Numbered from the stretch's first letter, positions 966 to 54,561 are shown. The stretch: DNA of 57,656 nucleotides from Rubrivivax sp. (GCA_020848515.1 JADLIA010000021.1:1-57656); one strand, 5' to 3'. Notes: a model not told the origin generated them from the letters alone. A program made the numbers and translations.

Positions 966-2669
966 ATGGCACTGCGCCACCTCAGTCTGCGCGACTTCGT
1001 CATCGTCCCGGCGCTGGAGCTGGCGCTCACGGGCGGCTTCACGGCGCTGACCGGCGAGACCGGTGCCGGCAAGTCGATCCTGGTCGACGCGCTGCAGCTG
1101 GTGCTGGGCGGCCGCGGCGACGCCCTGTGGGTGCGCGAGGGCCAGCCGCGCTGCGAAATCGCCGCCGAGTTCGAGCTGCCCGACGCCGCCCGCCCCTGGC
1201 TGGCCGAGCACGGCTTCGACACCGACACCGACGCCCTGCTGCTGCGCCGCGCCATCGACGCCGCCGGCAAGAGCCGGGCCTGGATCAACGGCTCGCCGGC
1301 CACCCTGGCGCAGCTGCGCACGCTGGGCGAATGGCTGGTCGACATCCACGGCCAGCACGCCTGGCAGAGCCTGACGCGAGCGGCCGCCGTGCGCCAGCTG
1401 CTGGACGCCTACGCCGGCATCGACACCGGCCCGCTGGCCACCGCCTGGCAGGCCTGGCGCCAGACCGAGGCCGCGCTGGCGGCCGCGCGCGCCGCGCAGG
1501 ACAGCCTGGCGCAGGAGCGCGAGCGCCTGCTGTGGCAGATCGGCGAACTCGACAAGCTGGCACCCGGCGACGGCGAATGGGACGAGCTGAACCAGCGCCA
1601 CGCCCGCCTGTCACACGCGCAGGCGCTGATCGACGCCGCCCGGGCCGCCGGTACCGCGCTGGAAGGCGACGACGGCGACGGCGGCGCCCTGCCCGCGCTG
1701 ACGCAGGCGCACGACGCGCTGGCCGCGCAGCGCGACATCGAGCCCGAATTCGCCGCCCTGGCCGAGCTGCTCGAGTCGTGCATCGCGCAGGCACGCGACG
1801 CCGCGCACAGCCTGCACGGCTACCTGCGCCGCGCCGACCTGGACCCCGAGCAGCTGGCCGCGCTGGACGAGCGCCTGGGCCAGTGGATGGGCCTGGCGCG
1901 ACGCTTTCGCCGCCCGCCGCAAGAGCTGCACGCGGTGCTGGCGCAGTGGCGCGCCGAACTGGCGGCGCTCGAATCCGCCGCCGATCTGGCGCAACTGCAG
2001 GCCCGGGCCGACGCGGCCCAGCAGGCGTTGCAGCAGGCCGCGCGCGCCGTCTCGCGCCAGCGCGACCAGGCCGCGCCACGCCTGGCCACCGCCGTCACCG
2101 AGGCCATGCAGGCGCTGGGCATGGCGGGCGGGCGCTTCGAGGTGCAACTCGACAAGCTCGCCGAGCCGGCTCCGCACGGTCTGGAAAACGTGGCTTTCCT
2201 GGTCGCAGCGCACGCCGGATCAGCGCCAAGAGCTATTGAAAGAGTAGCATCCGGGGGTGAACTGTCGCGCCTGGCACTGGCCATCGCCGTCACCACCAGC
2301 CAGCTGGGCACGGCCGGCACGCTGGTGTTCGACGAGGTAGACGCCGGCGTCGGCGGCGCCGTGGCGGCCACGGTGGGCCGCCTGCTGCAGCGCCTGGGTC
2401 GCGACCGCCAGGTGCTGTGCGTCACCCACCTGCCGCAGGTGGCGGCCTGCGCCGACCAGCACCTGCAGGTCAGCAAGCAGGCCGCCGGCGACGCGGCGCC
2501 GACCAGCCAGGTGGCGCCGATCAGCGGCGAGGCGCGCACGCGCGAGATCGCCCGCATGCTGGGCGGCGAGCGCCTGTCCGACGCCACGCTGGCCCATGCA
2601 CGGGAAATGCTGGCGCCGCCGGCCGCCGCACCGGCCGCGGCGGGTGGTACGCGAAAGGCGCGCGCGTGA
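966..2669 (+). CDS. recN: DNA repair protein RecN
   Basis: Walker [19 protein letters not shown] signature, [19 protein letters not shown]. Confidence 0.98.
2208..2248 (+). repeat. Dispersed 41-bp motif copy 1 (inside recN)
   Basis: GCGC acgccggatca GCGC caaga GCTA ttgaaagag TAGC. Confidence 0.85.
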
Positions 2670-3571
2670 TACCCGCCCCGCCCCCGGCGGCCGCCGCCGA
2701 GCCGCCCACCGGCACCGAGCTGGTGGTGATCACCGGCATGTCCGGCTCCGGCAAGTCGATCGCGCTGCGCGCGCTGGAGGACGCCGGCTACTACTGCGTC
2801 GACAACCTGCCGCCCGAGCTGCTGCGCCCCTTCATCGCGCTGGAAGACCGGCGCCAGGCGCGCCGCCTGGCCATCGCCATGGACGCGCGCAGCGGCGAAT
2901 CGCTGCCACAGCTGCCGCCGCTGCTCGACGGCCTGGCCGAGCAGGGCGTGCACCTGCGCCAGATCTTCCTGGAGGCCAACGACCACACCCTGGTGCGACG
3001 GTTTTCCGAGACCCGGCGACGCCACCCGCTGTCACAGGCCGACGAAGGCGACGTGCAGCAGGCGCTGCTGCAGGCGATCGCGCGCGAGCGCGAGCAGATG
3101 GCCGACCTGCGCGAGCGCTCGCTGGTGATCGACACCAGCGTGCTGCTGCCCTCGCAGCTGCTGGCCAGCGTCAAGGCCTTGATCGCCGCGCCGCTGGCGC
3201 ACCTGACGCTGGTGTTCGAATCCTTCGCCTTCAAGCGCGGCATCACGCTGGACGCCGACTACGTGTTCGACGTGCGCATGCTGCCCAACCCGTATTACGT
3301 GACCGAGTTGCGCCCGCTCACCGGGCGCGACCGGCCGGTGATCGACTACCTGGCGCGGCAGCCCGACGTGCAGCGCATGCAGGATCAGATCGCCGGCTTT
3401 CTGCGCGCCTGGCTGCCGGCGCTGGTGCATGACCACCGCAGCTACGTCACCGTGGCCATCGGCTGCACCGGCGGTCAGCACCGCTCGGTGTACCTGGTGG
3501 AGCAACTGGCGGCCCAGCTCGGGCAGGACTGGACCACGCTGCGCCGCCACCGCGAGCTGGACGGGCTGTAG
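2666..3571 (+). CDS. rapZ: RNase adapter / P-loop protein RapZ (YhbJ)
   Basis: [39 protein letters not shown] start overlaps recN stop (GTGA). Confidence 0.95.
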
Positions 3572-3591
3572 CGGCAGTAAAACACGTTCCA

Positions 3592-3632
3592 GCGCCCGTC
3601 TGGCAAGCGCAAGCAGCTACCAAAGTTGCAGC
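3592..3632 (+). repeat. Dispersed 41-bp motif copy 2 (intergenic, convergent genes)
   Basis: GCGC ccgtctggcaa GCGC aagca GCTA ccaaagttg CAGC. Confidence 0.88.
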
Positions 3633-3659
3633 TAGCGGAGGCCTGGAATCGCGCCGGCC

Positions 3660-52275: not shown

Positions 52276-52309
52276 AAAAAGCCCGCCTGATTCAGGCGGG
52301 CTTTTTTTT
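52276..52309. terminator. Bidirectional Rho-independent terminator
   Basis: AAAAA-GCCCGCCTGA-T-TCAGGCGGGC-TTTTTTTT between convergent cytochrome c and acs. Confidence 0.92.
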
Positions 52310-52360
52310 GTGCCTGGGGCCGAGCGGCGGCCCGCGGGGCCGCCGTCGAGCAGCTCAGGA

Positions 52361-54343
52361 TCAGTAGGTCTGATCGAGCTGCGCCAGGATGGCCGGGTTT
52401 TCCAGCGTGGTGGTGTCCTGCGTGATCTGCTCGCCCTTGGCCAGGCTGCGCAGCAGGCGACGCATGATCTTGCCCGAGCGCGTCTTGGGCAGGTTCTCGC
52501 CGAAGCGGATGTCCTTGGGCTTGGCGATCGGGCCGATTTCCTTGGCCACCCAGTCGCGCAGTTCCTTGGCGATCTGCTTGGCTTCGTCGCCCTGCGGCAG
52601 CGGACGCTTGAGCACCACGAAGGCGCAGATGGCCTCGCCGGTGGTTTCGTCGGGGCGGCCGACCACGGCGGCTTCGGCCACCAGGTCGGTCTTGGCCACC
52701 AGGGCGGATTCGATTTCCATGGTGCCCATGCGGTGGCCCGAGACGTTCAGCACGTCGTCGATGCGGCCGGTGACGCGGAAGTAGCCGCGCTCGGCATCAC
52801 GCACCGCTCCGTCGCCGGCCAGGTAGTAACCCTTGAGCTCCTCGGGAAAATAGCTGGACTTGAAGCGCGCCGGATCGCCCCAGATGGTGCGGATCATGCT
52901 GGGCCAGGGCTTCTTGATGACCAGGATGCCGCCCGAGCCCCAGGGCATGTCGTTGCCCGCCTCGTCCACGATGCCGGCAAACACGCCGGGCAGCGGCAAA
53001 GTGCAGGAACCCGGCACCAGCGGCGTGGCACCCGGCAGCGGGGTGATCAGGTGGCCGCCGTTCTCGGTCTGCCACCAGGTGTCGACGATCGGGCAGCGTT
53101 CGCCGCCGACGTTGCGGTAGTACCACATCCAGGCTTCCGGGTTGATCGGCTCGCCCACGCTGCCCAGGATGCGCAACGAAGACAGGTTCCAGTTCCTGGG
53201 ATGCACCTTGTCGTTGGTTTCCGACGCCTTGATGAGCGAACGGATGGCCGTGGGCGCGGTGTAGAAGATCGAGCACTGGTGGCGCTCGATCATCTGCCAG
53301 AAGCGGCCGGCGTCCGGGTAGGTCGGCACGCCCTCGAACATGATCTGGGTGGCGCCGGCGGCCAGTGGGCCGTAGACGATGTAGGTGTGGCCGGTGACCC
53401 AGCCGATGTCGGCGGTGCACCAGAAGACGTCGCTGTCCTTGAGGTCGAAGGTCCACTCCATGGTCATCTTCGCCCACAGCAGGTAGCCGCCGGTGGAATG
53501 CTGCACGCCCTTGGGCTTGCCGGTGGAGCCGCTGGTGTAGAGCACGAACAGCGGGTGCTCGGCATCGACGATCTCGGGCGCGCACTCGGTGCTCTGCCCT
53601 TGCAGCATCTGGGCGAAGGTCTTGTCGCGGCCGGCCACCATGTTGCAGGGGGTCTGGGTGCGCTCGTAGACAAACACGTTCTTGATCGACTCGCAGCCGC
53701 CCAGGCTCAGCGCCTCGTCGACGATGGCCTTCAGCGGCAGCTCCTTGCCACCGCGCATCTGGTAGTTGGCGGTGATGACGGCCACGGCGCCGGCGTCCTG
53801 GATGCGTTCCTGCACCGCCTTGGCCGAGAAGCCGCCGAACACCACACTGTGCGTGGCGCCGATGCGGGCGCAGGCCTGCATCGCGATCAGGCCCTCGATG
53901 GTCATCGGCATGTAGACCAGCACCCGGTCGCCCTTGCGGATGCCATGGGCCTTCAGGCCGTTGGCGAACTGGCTCACGCGCGCCAGCAGCTCCTTGTAGG
54001 TGACCTTGGTGACTTCACCGCCGTCGGCTTCGAAGATGATCGCGGTCTTGTTTTCGACCGGCGTGCCCATGTGCTTGTCCAGACAGTTGGCGCTGGCGTT
54101 GAGCTGGCCGTCGGCAAACCACTTGTAGAAGGGCTTGTTGGATTCATCCAGCACCTGGGTGAAGGGTTTGGCCCACACCAGGTGTTCACGCGCACGCCGC
54201 GCCCAGAAACCTTCGAAATCCTTCTCGGCCTCTTCGTACAGGGCCTGATAGGCGCCCATGCCGCTGATGCGGGCCGCCTTGACCATGGCTTCGCTGGGGG
54301 GGAACACGCGGTTTTCGACCAGAACCGATTGAATGGCGCTCAT
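52361..54343 (-). CDS. acs: Acetate--CoA ligase
   Basis: [39 protein letters not shown]. Confidence 0.98.
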
Positions 54344-54520
54344 GTGCCTTGTCTCCTGGATAAGAGGGGGAAAGTTGAACACACCCGTCCCGCGCTGGCG
54401 GGACAGACGGTTTCATCATCCGGTCAGGCTCTTACAAAGCACTGACTCTGGGCGGGCCCGGGCAGCCGGGGCTACGGCGCTTGGGGCGCCCGTCGATCTT
54501 GGGAATGAAATTCGGTTCCA

Positions 54521-54561
54521 GCGCATACGTGGCAAGCGCCGCTAGCTATGTTTGTAATAGC
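54521..54561 (+). repeat. Dispersed 41-bp motif copy 16 (intergenic)
   Basis: gaatgaaattcggttcca GCGC atacgtggcaa GCGC cgcta GCTA tgtttgtaa TAGC. Confidence 0.92.

What the first reader, a model, noticed from the sequence alone, without database searches (positions are those of the whole stretch)
2208..54561. Dispersed fixed-geometry motif GCGC-N11-GCGC-N5-GCTA-N9-TAGC, 16 copies, in and between genes: candidate genome-wide signal sequence
Seen: 16 AT-richer islands share a 41-bp core, with leftmost coordinates 2208, 3592, 6369, 7573, 12344, 18924, 20750, 22395, 23885, 26940, 29452, 42966, 46063, 47658, 51518 and 54521. The N5 and N9 spacings are invariant, and N11 holds in all copies whose first box is recognisable (it is degenerate in 4). 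Spacer sequences vary freely. Most copies have a 5' tail like TTCAGGCATCAAAnnGGC. Eight are on each strand; 7 lie inside intact genes, 1 overlaps a start codon and 8 are intergenic. I saw no target-site duplications and no transposase or RAYT in the window. Established: REP/MITE copies usually conserve sequence throughout; Chi and KOPS are strand-polarised; DNA uptake sequences (Neisseria DUS, Pasteurellaceae USS) are non-polar, dense, accumulate in genes, and USS has phased AT tracts. Inference: conserved spacing with free spacers points to protein recognition of two adjacent dyads, for example an uptake signal, a nucleoid-organising site or an old domesticated MITE. Density here is about 1 per 3.6 kb. 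I cannot assign it to a named family, but could not search for prior descriptions.
Basis: partly seen in the sequence, partly recalled or inferred. Interest (0 to 1): 0.92.

Follow-up and report, generated by a model that had tools for sequence, protein, structure and literature searches.

The report
Long genome-wide self-DNA tag in Comamonadaceae
About 650 evenly spread copies of one 68-base DNA pattern are written into the genes and spacers of this bacterium and of many relatives, and short, likely gene-less integron cassettes carry it too; it likely marks DNA for uptake by related cells, which would make it a third and much longer bacterial uptake signal.

Summary
Real, and larger than reported. 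All 16 copies exist; the genome (an Ottowia relative) holds 647 against 0 in background. The element spans about 68 bp and carries about 55 bits. Copies are all different, non-polar, evenly spaced and show no arm covariation, so it reads as a double-stranded protein site, not a hairpin or MITE. In recN it is spelled by substitutions without any indel. It holds synonymous A/T bases against GC pressure, persists at orthologous sites, and decays in several lineages independently. It is confined to Comamonadaceae (52 of 300 genomes rich; 0 of 244 outside). New: the integron cassette family DUF1010 (gcuF/orfF of clinical class 1 integrons) is a short cassette built around one copy. Best reading (0.5): an uptake-type self-DNA signal under molecular drive, exploited by selfish cassettes. 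Against it: no receptor gene co-segregates, uptake is untested, and the one relative with reported selective uptake shows no such motif in a published table. Fragments were listed in 2017 as unexplained motifs; I found no assembled description or function.

The parts
2185..2252 (+). 68-bp copy (core 2208-2248) inside recN at codon 415, just before the SGGE signature; spelled by substitutions, no indel
   Evidence: 46.6 bits; orthologue alignments; Pfam SMC_N
3569..3636 (+). copy (core 3592-3632), convergent intergenic
   Evidence: 43.0 bits; class; identical in L002
6365..6432 (-). weak copy (core 6369-6409), intergenic before the chorismate synthase gene
   Evidence: 21.2 bits; diverged but 31 bits in L002; 3 strain differences inside
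7550..7617 (+). strongest window copy (core 7573-7613), intergenic; query that found the DUF1010 cassette
   Evidence: 55.9 bits
12340..12407 (-). copy (core 12344-12384), intergenic
   Evidence: 27.1 bits
18901..18968 (+). copy (core 18924-18964) antisense inside the molybdopterin oxidoreductase gene
   Evidence: 54.8 bits
20746..20813 (-). copy (core 20750-20790) sense inside the same gene
   Evidence: 32.7 bits
22391..22458 (-). copy (core 22395-22435) inside the Nuo51-type flavoprotein subunit gene
   Evidence: 49.0 bits
23862..23929 (+). weak copy (core 23885-23925), intergenic
   Evidence: 20.9 bits
26917..26984 (+). copy (core 26940-26980), convergent intergenic
   Evidence: 33.0 bits
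29448..29515 (-). copy (core 29452-29492) in the linker region of dnaX
   Evidence: 43.2 bits; kept in G061 at 31.5 bits; Pfam
42962..43029 (-). copy (core 42966-43006) inside an enoyl-CoA hydratase gene
   Evidence: 50.1 bits; kept in G061, absent in three motif-poor relatives
46059..46126 (-). copy (core 46063-46103), intergenic or over an uncertain start codon
   Evidence: 52.7 bits
47635..47702 (+). copy (core 47658-47698), convergent intergenic
   Evidence: 52.3 bits
51514..51581 (-). copy (core 51518-51558) touching the stop codon of the upstream gene
   Evidence: 38.0 bits
54498..54565 (+). copy (core 54521-54561), intergenic; G061 has a copy in the same spacer on the other strand
   Evidence: 44.8 bits; 4 strain differences inside
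1..5000 (.). context: tract 97-100% identical to the related genome of L002 (elsewhere about 89%), holding two copies; likely a recent homologous exchange

Best explanation
The element is a 68-bp double-stranded DNA site present about once per 3.8 kb, and it likely works as a self-DNA uptake signal: a not yet identified protein of the competence pathway would favour fragments that carry it, so that homologous recombination keeps rewriting it into the chromosome (molecular drive). Shown: copy number, non-polarity, even spacing, base and dinucleotide constraint without pairing, maintenance at the DNA level inside genes, repeated decay, and carriage by short integron cassettes. Inferred: read-out by one pseudo-symmetric protein complex (dyads centred on positions 10 and 33, A/T tracts about 22 and 32 bp either side of position 10); the uptake step itself; drive rather than selection as the force; decay after loss of the bias; and DUF1010/gcuF cassettes as selfish riders that gain entry to motif-rich hosts by carrying the tag.
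For: Dense and beyond chance: 647 vs 0. Non-polar: 324+/323-, neighbours 238 same vs 251 opposite, 188 vs 179 by inferred leading strand, 94 sites uniform round complete chromosome G018, KS p 0.31, polarity p 0.37. Even: 14 of 489 gaps under 500 bp vs 70 (uniform) or 42 (class-matched); contig counts chi2 107.7 on 185 df. Overlay, not insertion: recN site present in 4 (weak in 1) of 80 orthologues with no indel; 38 of 79 in-gene sites have no indel against a motif-poor relative and none is 22 aa longer. Force acts on DNA: at four-fold sites A/T is kept in 270 of 1351 positions outside the motif, 69 of 117 at free and 38 of 38 at fixed motif positions, while codon positions 1 and 2 are less conserved inside (0.81, 0.84) than outside (0.94, 0.95); 47 of 49 orthologous sites kept in G041. 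Frame-biased (121 of 177 in two of six frames) and thinning from 19.1 to 1.2 per 100 kb across codon-score quintiles. Information 54.7 bits against 12.9 needed to locate the sites. Labile: 0-506 copies across 35 Ottowia-level genomes, with poor lineages interleaved among rich ones; the Tex site is kept in 14 of 14 rich and 2 of 13 poor genomes. Competence genes present: ComEC 35 of 35, PilT family 35 of 35. Passages of PMC7811141 describe these same traits and drive for USS/DUS; passages of PMC4212676 report natural transformation in Acidovorax temperans, A. facilis and Verminephrobacter. Cassettes: 21 of 22 short cassettes carry one copy, none reversed, retained while the stretch to attC varies (5, 38, 78 bp); tandem runs of four; DUF1010 in 18 of 52 rich vs 4 of 248 poor genomes (kin are not independent).
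Against: No uptake experiment exists here. No receptor found: ComEC, PilT, PilE clusters, PilA and a ComEA-like protein occur in rich and poor genomes alike; rich G018 shows no extra stand-alone pilin and minor pilins of rich genomes are often only 35-47% alike; subtraction against 1.31 Mb of a poor genome gave no co-segregating gene. Verminephrobacter eiseniae, the relative with reported selective uptake, has only one, unrelated motif pair in the 2017 table. The site is about twice the length of USS (31 bp model in PMC7811141). Inverted pairs, typical of DUS/USS terminators (recalled), are almost absent (1 gap under 100 bp of 489). Weak sites are few (665 at 10 bits vs 647 at 18), which leaves the birth of new sites unexplained. 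Depletion in foreign DNA was not shown (3.0 vs 2.2 per 10 kb, confounded by the incomplete assembly). A/T phasing is not a clean 10.5-bp period.
Confidence: 0.5

Rival explanations
1. A binding site for a chromosome-organising or topology protein (nucleoid protein, strong gyrase-type site, SMC loader, or a LysR-like tetramer turned architectural), kept by selection because the chromosome needs one every few kb.
For: Long pseudo-symmetric site with shape-like dinucleotide coupling; even spacing; most frequent in convergent spacers, 92 sites for 225 spacers vs 30 for 302 divergent ones; invariant T27 and A39 form a T-N11-A dyad, the LysR-box geometry (recalled); no competence gene tracks it.
Against: Repeated near-complete loss in close, viable relatives; four times more information than needed to find the sites; tandem runs of motif cassettes 262 bp apart make no sense for a spacing function; absent from a ribosomal-protein contig and rarest in the most codon-biased genes, where topology relief would be most needed; no macrodomain pattern.
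Confidence: 0.24
2. Drive by another DNA-transfer step: a packaging start for transducing or gene-transfer particles, or a signal that protects or licenses incoming DNA for recombination after non-specific uptake.
For: Any biased homologous replacement predicts the same genomic pattern; it would explain why outer-membrane uptake genes do not co-segregate; the motif occurs in at least 126 viral-contig stretches; a recent exchange tract covers two sites.
Against: No such machinery was identified or searched for; viral hits may be host flanks or long-resident prophages; known recombination signals such as Chi are short and polar (recalled), this is neither.
Confidence: 0.13
3. A REP-like or MITE-like repeat spread by a Y1 (RAYT) or other transposase, or remnants of cassettes inserted around the chromosome, now decayed.
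For: Palindromic consensus; 60% intergenic; a Y1 gene is in 28 of 35 genomes with a copy at its 3' end in 4 of 5 rich genomes; 13 of 79 in-gene sites are more than 5 aa longer than in a poor relative.
Against: No arm covariation (z at most 1.3 for all mirrored core pairs, several negative); nearest-neighbour identity 47.5 of 68 vs 46.8 for independent draws; 646 of 646 copies distinct, no clusters; no indel at recN; in Tex the loop is shorter in five separate motif-poor or low-copy lineages; the Y1 gene has other conserved ends, is intact in poor G058, and its 40% homologue in this genome lies in a 14.7-kb site-free gap; no information beyond -24 or +47, so no cassette remnants.
Confidence: 0.06
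4. An RNA-level or transcription signal (terminator, processing site, promoter cassette).
For: Convergent-spacer and 3'-end bias; fixed orientation in cassettes; promoter-bearing ORF-less cassettes are described in passages of PMC8876359.
Against: 88 sense vs 89 antisense inside genes, 152 vs 103 in co-directional spacers; no pairing signal; no Rfam match; least common in divergent spacers.
Confidence: 0.05

Closest known systems
Pasteurellaceae USS and Neisseriaceae DUS
   Same: Hundreds of non-polar, evenly spread copies; built into permissive coding positions; share inside genes (27% plus 13% overlapping) near the 34% given for DUS in PMC11893778; fixed core plus A/T tracts; species-level variants of the spacer.
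   Different: Unrelated sequence; about 68 bp and 55 bits; pseudo-dyad symmetry; almost no inverted pairs; no co-segregating ComP- or PpdA-like pilin found; uptake untested.
Unexplained motif pairs of Tong et al. 2017 (PMC5217627)
   Same: GCTTAT-N5-AAGCG in Acidovorax ebreus (114 copies), ATAGCT-N22-CAAAAG in Polaromonas naphthalenivorans (125), and the A. ebreus table rows (GCTAT_ATAGC d7, AGCGC_AGCTA d19, CAAAT_AGCTA d32) are pieces of this element; convergent-spacer bias also noted.
   Different: Listed there as separate 'potential novel motifs' with no function; not assembled, not compared across orthologues, no cassette link.
DUF1010 (PF06231) / gcuF-orfF integron cassette
   Same: Holds one full copy (49.5 bits in the class 1 integron cassette of L358).
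   Different: Catalogued as a protein of unknown function; here the frame shows no codon-position constraint (0.162/0.156/0.170 in 27 sequences) and some copies have stops or shifts, so the DNA motif, not the peptide, looks like the conserved part.
REP/RAYT and Ssn/NTS repeats
   Same: Palindromic consensus, intergenic bias, a Y1 gene in the clade.
   Different: No hairpin covariation, no clusters, many copies inside core genes; NTS is 2% in genes; the REP catalogue PMC3733652 names none of six Comamonadaceae terms in its main text.
BRE of Bordetella and Comamonadaceae (PMC3110155)
   Same: Dispersed repeat reported in Polaromonas, Acidovorax, Rhodoferax, Delftia.
   Different: Different GC-rich 90-bp sequence, at most 29 copies, often tandem.
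Chi, KOPS, matS, SlmA sites (recalled)
   Same: Genome-wide protein-read DNA signals.
   Different: Those are short and either polar or domain-restricted; this is long, non-polar and uniform.

Membership tests
DNA uptake sequence (DUS/USS kind) | Hundreds of dispersed copies far above chance | tested here: met
   647 vs 0
DNA uptake sequence (DUS/USS kind) | Both strands, no replichore polarity, even spacing | tested here: met
DNA uptake sequence (DUS/USS kind) | Held in coding DNA by substitution at permissive positions, rare in constrained genes | tested here: met
DNA uptake sequence (DUS/USS kind) | Host has competence machinery | tested here: met
   ComEC and PilT family in 35 of 35; this assembly has pilC and the end of pilB, other pilus loci fall at contig breaks or are missing
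DNA uptake sequence (DUS/USS kind) | Under-represented in recently acquired DNA | tested here: inconclusive
   3.0 vs 2.2 per 10 kb, confounded; plasmid test uninformative
DNA uptake sequence (DUS/USS kind) | A dedicated pilin receptor that co-occurs with the motif | tested here: inconclusive
   none found among N-methyl pilins of 5 rich and 5 poor genomes or PilE loci of 30 genomes
DNA uptake sequence (DUS/USS kind) | Confers preferential uptake on linked DNA | not testable with these tools
   needs an uptake assay
Neisseria DUS or Pasteurellaceae USS proper | Same core sequence and family range | tested here: not met
   consensus unrelated; confined to Comamonadaceae, at most 4 matches in each of 244 other genomes of the order
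REP / RAYT | Hairpin kept by compensatory changes | tested here: not met
REP / RAYT | Repeats flank the RAYT gene on both sides and cluster as BIMEs | tested here: not met
   one syntenic 3' site in 4 of 5; other ends conserved instead; no clusters
MITE | Clean insertion against empty orthologous sites; families of near-identical copies | tested here: not met
Ssn / NTS | Clustered hairpins, rare in genes, linked small GIY-YIG gene | tested here: not met
   27% in genes, no clusters; a crude pattern search found no small GIY-YIG protein in the 77% assembly
Chi / KOPS / matS | Strand polarity or macrodomain restriction | tested here: not met
Nucleoid or topoisomerase site | Bound in vivo by a cytoplasmic chromosome protein | not testable with these tools
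   needs ChIP or pull-down
Structured RNA family | Rfam match | tested here: not met
   only SRP RNA in the window

The most novel reading that the evidence does not exclude
A third, independently evolved sequence-specific DNA uptake system, in Comamonadaceae, whose 68-bp pseudo-symmetric signal is read by a receptor unlike ComP or PpdA, and which has bred its own parasites: gene-less integron cassettes (DUF1010, including gcuF/orfF of clinical class 1 integrons) that consist of little more than the signal and an attC site.
Probability: 0.4. Interest if true: 0.92.

Novelty: new variant of a known kind. Interest (0 to 1): 0.82.

Why it matters
Sequence-specific uptake signals are characterised in two families in the papers I read. 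A third, with a signal about twice as long, present and lost many times within one genus, would give a natural experiment on molecular drive and on what uptake bias does to genome and protein evolution. Whatever the binder is, a 55-bit site that bends hundreds of core proteins in a family common in water treatment and soil has no explanation in the literature I could search. It also gives a testable identity to DUF1010 and to gcuF/orfF, a cassette seen on more than 1,700 plasmid records here and carried as a 'protein of unknown function'.

Tried and rejected
Literature searches with no description of the assembled element or its function: (open-access library only; subscription papers and bioRxiv supplements not seen). 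Earlier findings of this scan: nothing. Apparent strand runs in the listings look like a listing cap and vanish when all sites are listed. A clean 10.5-bp A/T period, my first reading, is not supported by the spectrum. Local hypermutation is not needed: A/T at four-fold sites is better, not worse, conserved inside the motif. Receptor hunt: ComEC, PilT, PF16732 pilins, cluster type, PilA, ComEA-like proteins and comEC/pilA neighbourhoods do not track the motif; subtraction used only 1.31 Mb, about 38%, of one poor genome and gave 91 synteny-supported losses; the best-looking one, a dynamin-like gene (label recalled), is also in motif-free Variovorax and Ramlibacter loci. Pfam found no Y1 gene in this genome but tblastn later found a 40% homologue. 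Plasmid test: 0 matches in 353 kb, but the pattern gave only 8 in a 5.1-Mb Polaromonas genome, so it says nothing; 2 PWM hits in a 40-kb stretch chosen around a hit. Public runs were contigs only, so no RNA ends could be read; lower cover over window 1001-4335 at a 97% cut-off is not used as evidence. Strain differences inside sites (5 of 40 and 3 of 40 rows shown, about 0.8 expected each) come from truncated lists and are only suggestive. The RecN tree was the quick one and its deep branches are weak; the Tex tree is one gene with 10 of 27 forks open. DUF1010 counts are lower bounds: 19 candidates were scored per genome. One Pfam query was on the wrong strand and is ignored. No structure or complex prediction was run, as there was no candidate protein.

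
Full report
Observation. All 16 copies are at the stated places and strands, and an iterated weight matrix finds exactly these 16 in the window and 647 in the 2.475-Mb, 69.6% GC, 77% complete genome, against 0 in an order-5 Markov genome; shifting either spacer by one base removes the signal. RecN places the genome among Ottowia, Comamonadaceae. Information runs from -23 to +45: consensus nWTnnnnRnnAAAWnnGSCTnYR GCGCnYRYCnRnCnA GCGC CAGCA GCTATnnWWWnnRTAGC, 54.7 bits against 12.9 bits needed to locate 647 sites. The matrix is self-complementary about positions 10 and 33.

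It is read as double-stranded DNA. The strongest mutual information is between adjacent columns, such as TT or CC at 5/6 and AA or TT at -12/-11. Mirrored positions of both dyads show no excess of complementary pairs (z at most 1.3 in the cores, several strongly negative; one flanking pair, -1/20, reaches 4.0). All 646 scorable copies differ, and nearest-neighbour identity (47.5 of 68) is close to that of independent draws (46.8), so there is no young family. Rfam finds only the SRP RNA in the window.

Distribution. With my own gene caller, 385 copies are intergenic, 177 inside genes and 85 overlap an end, against 60, 546 and 41 at random; convergent spacers are favoured and divergent ones avoided; 121 of 177 in-gene copies use two of six frames, with 88 sense and 89 antisense. 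Gaps under 500 bp are 14 of 489, against 70 or 42 in two nulls. There is no polarity and 94 strict sites are uniform round complete chromosome G018. In-gene density falls sixteen-fold from the lowest to the highest codon-score quintile; the score is slightly lowered by the motif itself.

How sites sit in genes. In recN the copy lies at codon 415 beside the SGGE signature; four of 80 orthologues carry it at the same codon, one weakly, 74 do not and one does not cover it, all without an indel at the site. Against held DNA of a motif-poor relative, 38 of 79 in-gene sites have no indel, 13 are more than 5 aa longer here and none is a full 22-aa insertion (first pass 17 of 34). In Tex, the site at residue 425 is kept in 14 of 14 rich, 2 of 3 intermediate and 2 of 13 poor genomes, and the loop is 4-7 aa shorter in five lineages without it. 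Between this genome and G041 (88% identical), 47 of 49 sites remain sites though their free positions change faster than the flanks. At four-fold positions A/T survives in 270 of 1351 cases outside the motif, 69 of 117 at free and 38 of 38 at fixed motif positions, while first and second codon positions are less conserved inside than outside. A force on the DNA sequence therefore outweighs codon bias and, in part, the protein.

Range. Strict 26-mer counts run from 0 to 506 over 35 genomes of the genus, with poor lineages interleaved among rich ones. Named loci lead to rich genomes in Ottowia (223, 420), Acidovorax (210), Polaromonas (275), Albidiferax (203, 181) and Rhodoferax (78), and to control-level counts in Variovorax, Ramlibacter, Limnohabitans, Hydrogenophaga, Caenimonas and Roseateles (50 of 80 loci were submitted). 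In the family 52 of 300 genomes have 30 or more; none of 244 genomes of other families of the order has more than 4.

Cassettes. One window copy matched 'DUF1010 domain-containing protein' on most of the 40 listed of 1,762 plasmid records. In the record opened it is the cassette between dfrA12 and aadA2 of a class 1 integron (the name gcuF/orfF is recalled) and holds one 49.5-bit copy. DUF1010 marks short cassettes in Comamonadaceae arrays, 22 of 300 genomes, up to 16 per genome, with tandem runs of four. Of 68 motif hits in these loci 50 lie at one fixed distance before the attC core; related cassettes keep the motif with 38 or 5 bp instead of 78; 21 of 22 cassettes of 244-320 bp carry it, never reversed, while the intervening 450-665 bp gene cassettes mostly lack it (these loci were chosen by DUF1010, so the share is not that of all cassettes). 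The frame shows no codon-position pattern and is sometimes broken. DUF1010 occurs in 18 of 52 rich and 4 of 248 poor genomes.

Mechanism. Passages of PMC7811141 state that uptake bias plus recombination makes USS/DUS accumulate evenly, avoid constrained and new DNA, and need no fitness benefit. The pattern here fits that account, as do the excess information, the repeated decay and the cassettes, which would gain entry to competent hosts by carrying a tag. The machinery is there, relatives are transformable (PMC4212676 passages), and window 1-5000 is 97-100% identical to a genome that is otherwise about 89% identical, which points to recent exchange, though a binning artefact is possible. Against: no receptor co-segregates, Verminephrobacter shows only an unrelated pair in the 2017 table, inverted pairs and weak sites are rare, and nothing here measures uptake. 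A chromosome-protein site explains the geometry and convergent bias but not the lability or tandem cassettes. REP/RAYT and MITE readings fail their defining tests.

Prior description. PMC5217627 (passages, section 13, supplement searches and part 26 of supplement 2 read) lists pieces of this element in Acidovorax ebreus and Polaromonas naphthalenivorans as potential novel motifs without function, and 140 pairs for Rhodoferax ferrireducens, of which I saw two. BRE is another sequence (PMC3110155, passages and supplement search). PMC3733652 was searched for six taxon words only; PMC8876359, PMC11893778, PMC12378983 and PMC12616744 were read as passages. Ten library searches found no assembled description, no function and no link to DUF1010; subscription literature was not searchable.

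Verdict. A real, family-restricted, unexplained genome-wide DNA signal. It works most like an uptake sequence (0.5) but is not a member of DUS or USS. Novelty: new variant of a known kind if the best reading holds. Interest 0.82.

Noticed in passing
window 1-5000: Tract 97-100% identical to L002 against about 89% elsewhere; a second such tract on contig C151 against G041. Likely recent interspecies homologous exchange covering NAD kinase, recN and rapZ.
   Followed up: partly
L428-L457 (Tex tree): Motif-poor lineages tend to have longer terminal branches (Spearman -0.37, p 0.04, one gene, kin not independent), as if loss of the motif goes with faster protein change.
   Followed up: partly
L498-L502, L472:8706-12036: A single-copy, about 232-aa Y1 (RAYT-like) gene at a fixed place before a glutamate synthase-like gene (label recalled), with conserved GGGGTCAGA and TGTCCC/TCTGACCCC ends, in rich and poor genomes: a domesticated transposase of unknown role.
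   Followed up: partly
L153-L161, L082-L111: Minor-pilin clusters are swapped wholesale among close Ottowia genomes, with at least two cluster types at different loci.
   Followed up: partly
L001 (G000:C68:5731-9555) and G000:C137-C138 region gene g1824: comEC has one copy inside and one just upstream; a DprA-like gene (label recalled, not tested; place given by gene id only) has two copies. Enrichment in competence or repair genes was not tested.
   Followed up: no
G018 vs G000 vs G007 listings: The 5-bp spacer differs by species (TGGCA common in G018, CAGCA here, AGGCA/AAGCA in G007), suggesting dialects.
   Followed up: no
window 54498-54565: All 4 differences in a 1,044-bp contig of run X9 fall inside this copy; G061 has a copy in the same spacer on the opposite strand.
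   Followed up: partly
L232-L357: At least 126 viral-contig stretches hold the full 41-mer, none followed by a DUF1010-type attC; whether they are phage genes or host flanks was not examined.
   Followed up: no
L377-L406: Motif cassettes share a second conserved word, GGGCTTCGCC, about 45 bp before the core; role unknown.
   Followed up: no
L003, L005, L006 vs L004, L008, L009: A 639-aa dynamin-like gene (label recalled) between mutY- and mutM-like genes is missing in three motif-poor Ottowia loci and in several Limnohabitans loci but present in Variovorax and Ramlibacter.
   Followed up: yes
window 31360-31456: Bacterial small SRP RNA, inside a 13.5-kb stretch without the motif that also holds a cytochrome oxidase-like cluster (labels recalled).
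   Followed up: no
L407:18665 and 20020: Two strong copies sit in spacers of a BREX-2 cluster on a Polaromonas plasmid.
   Followed up: no
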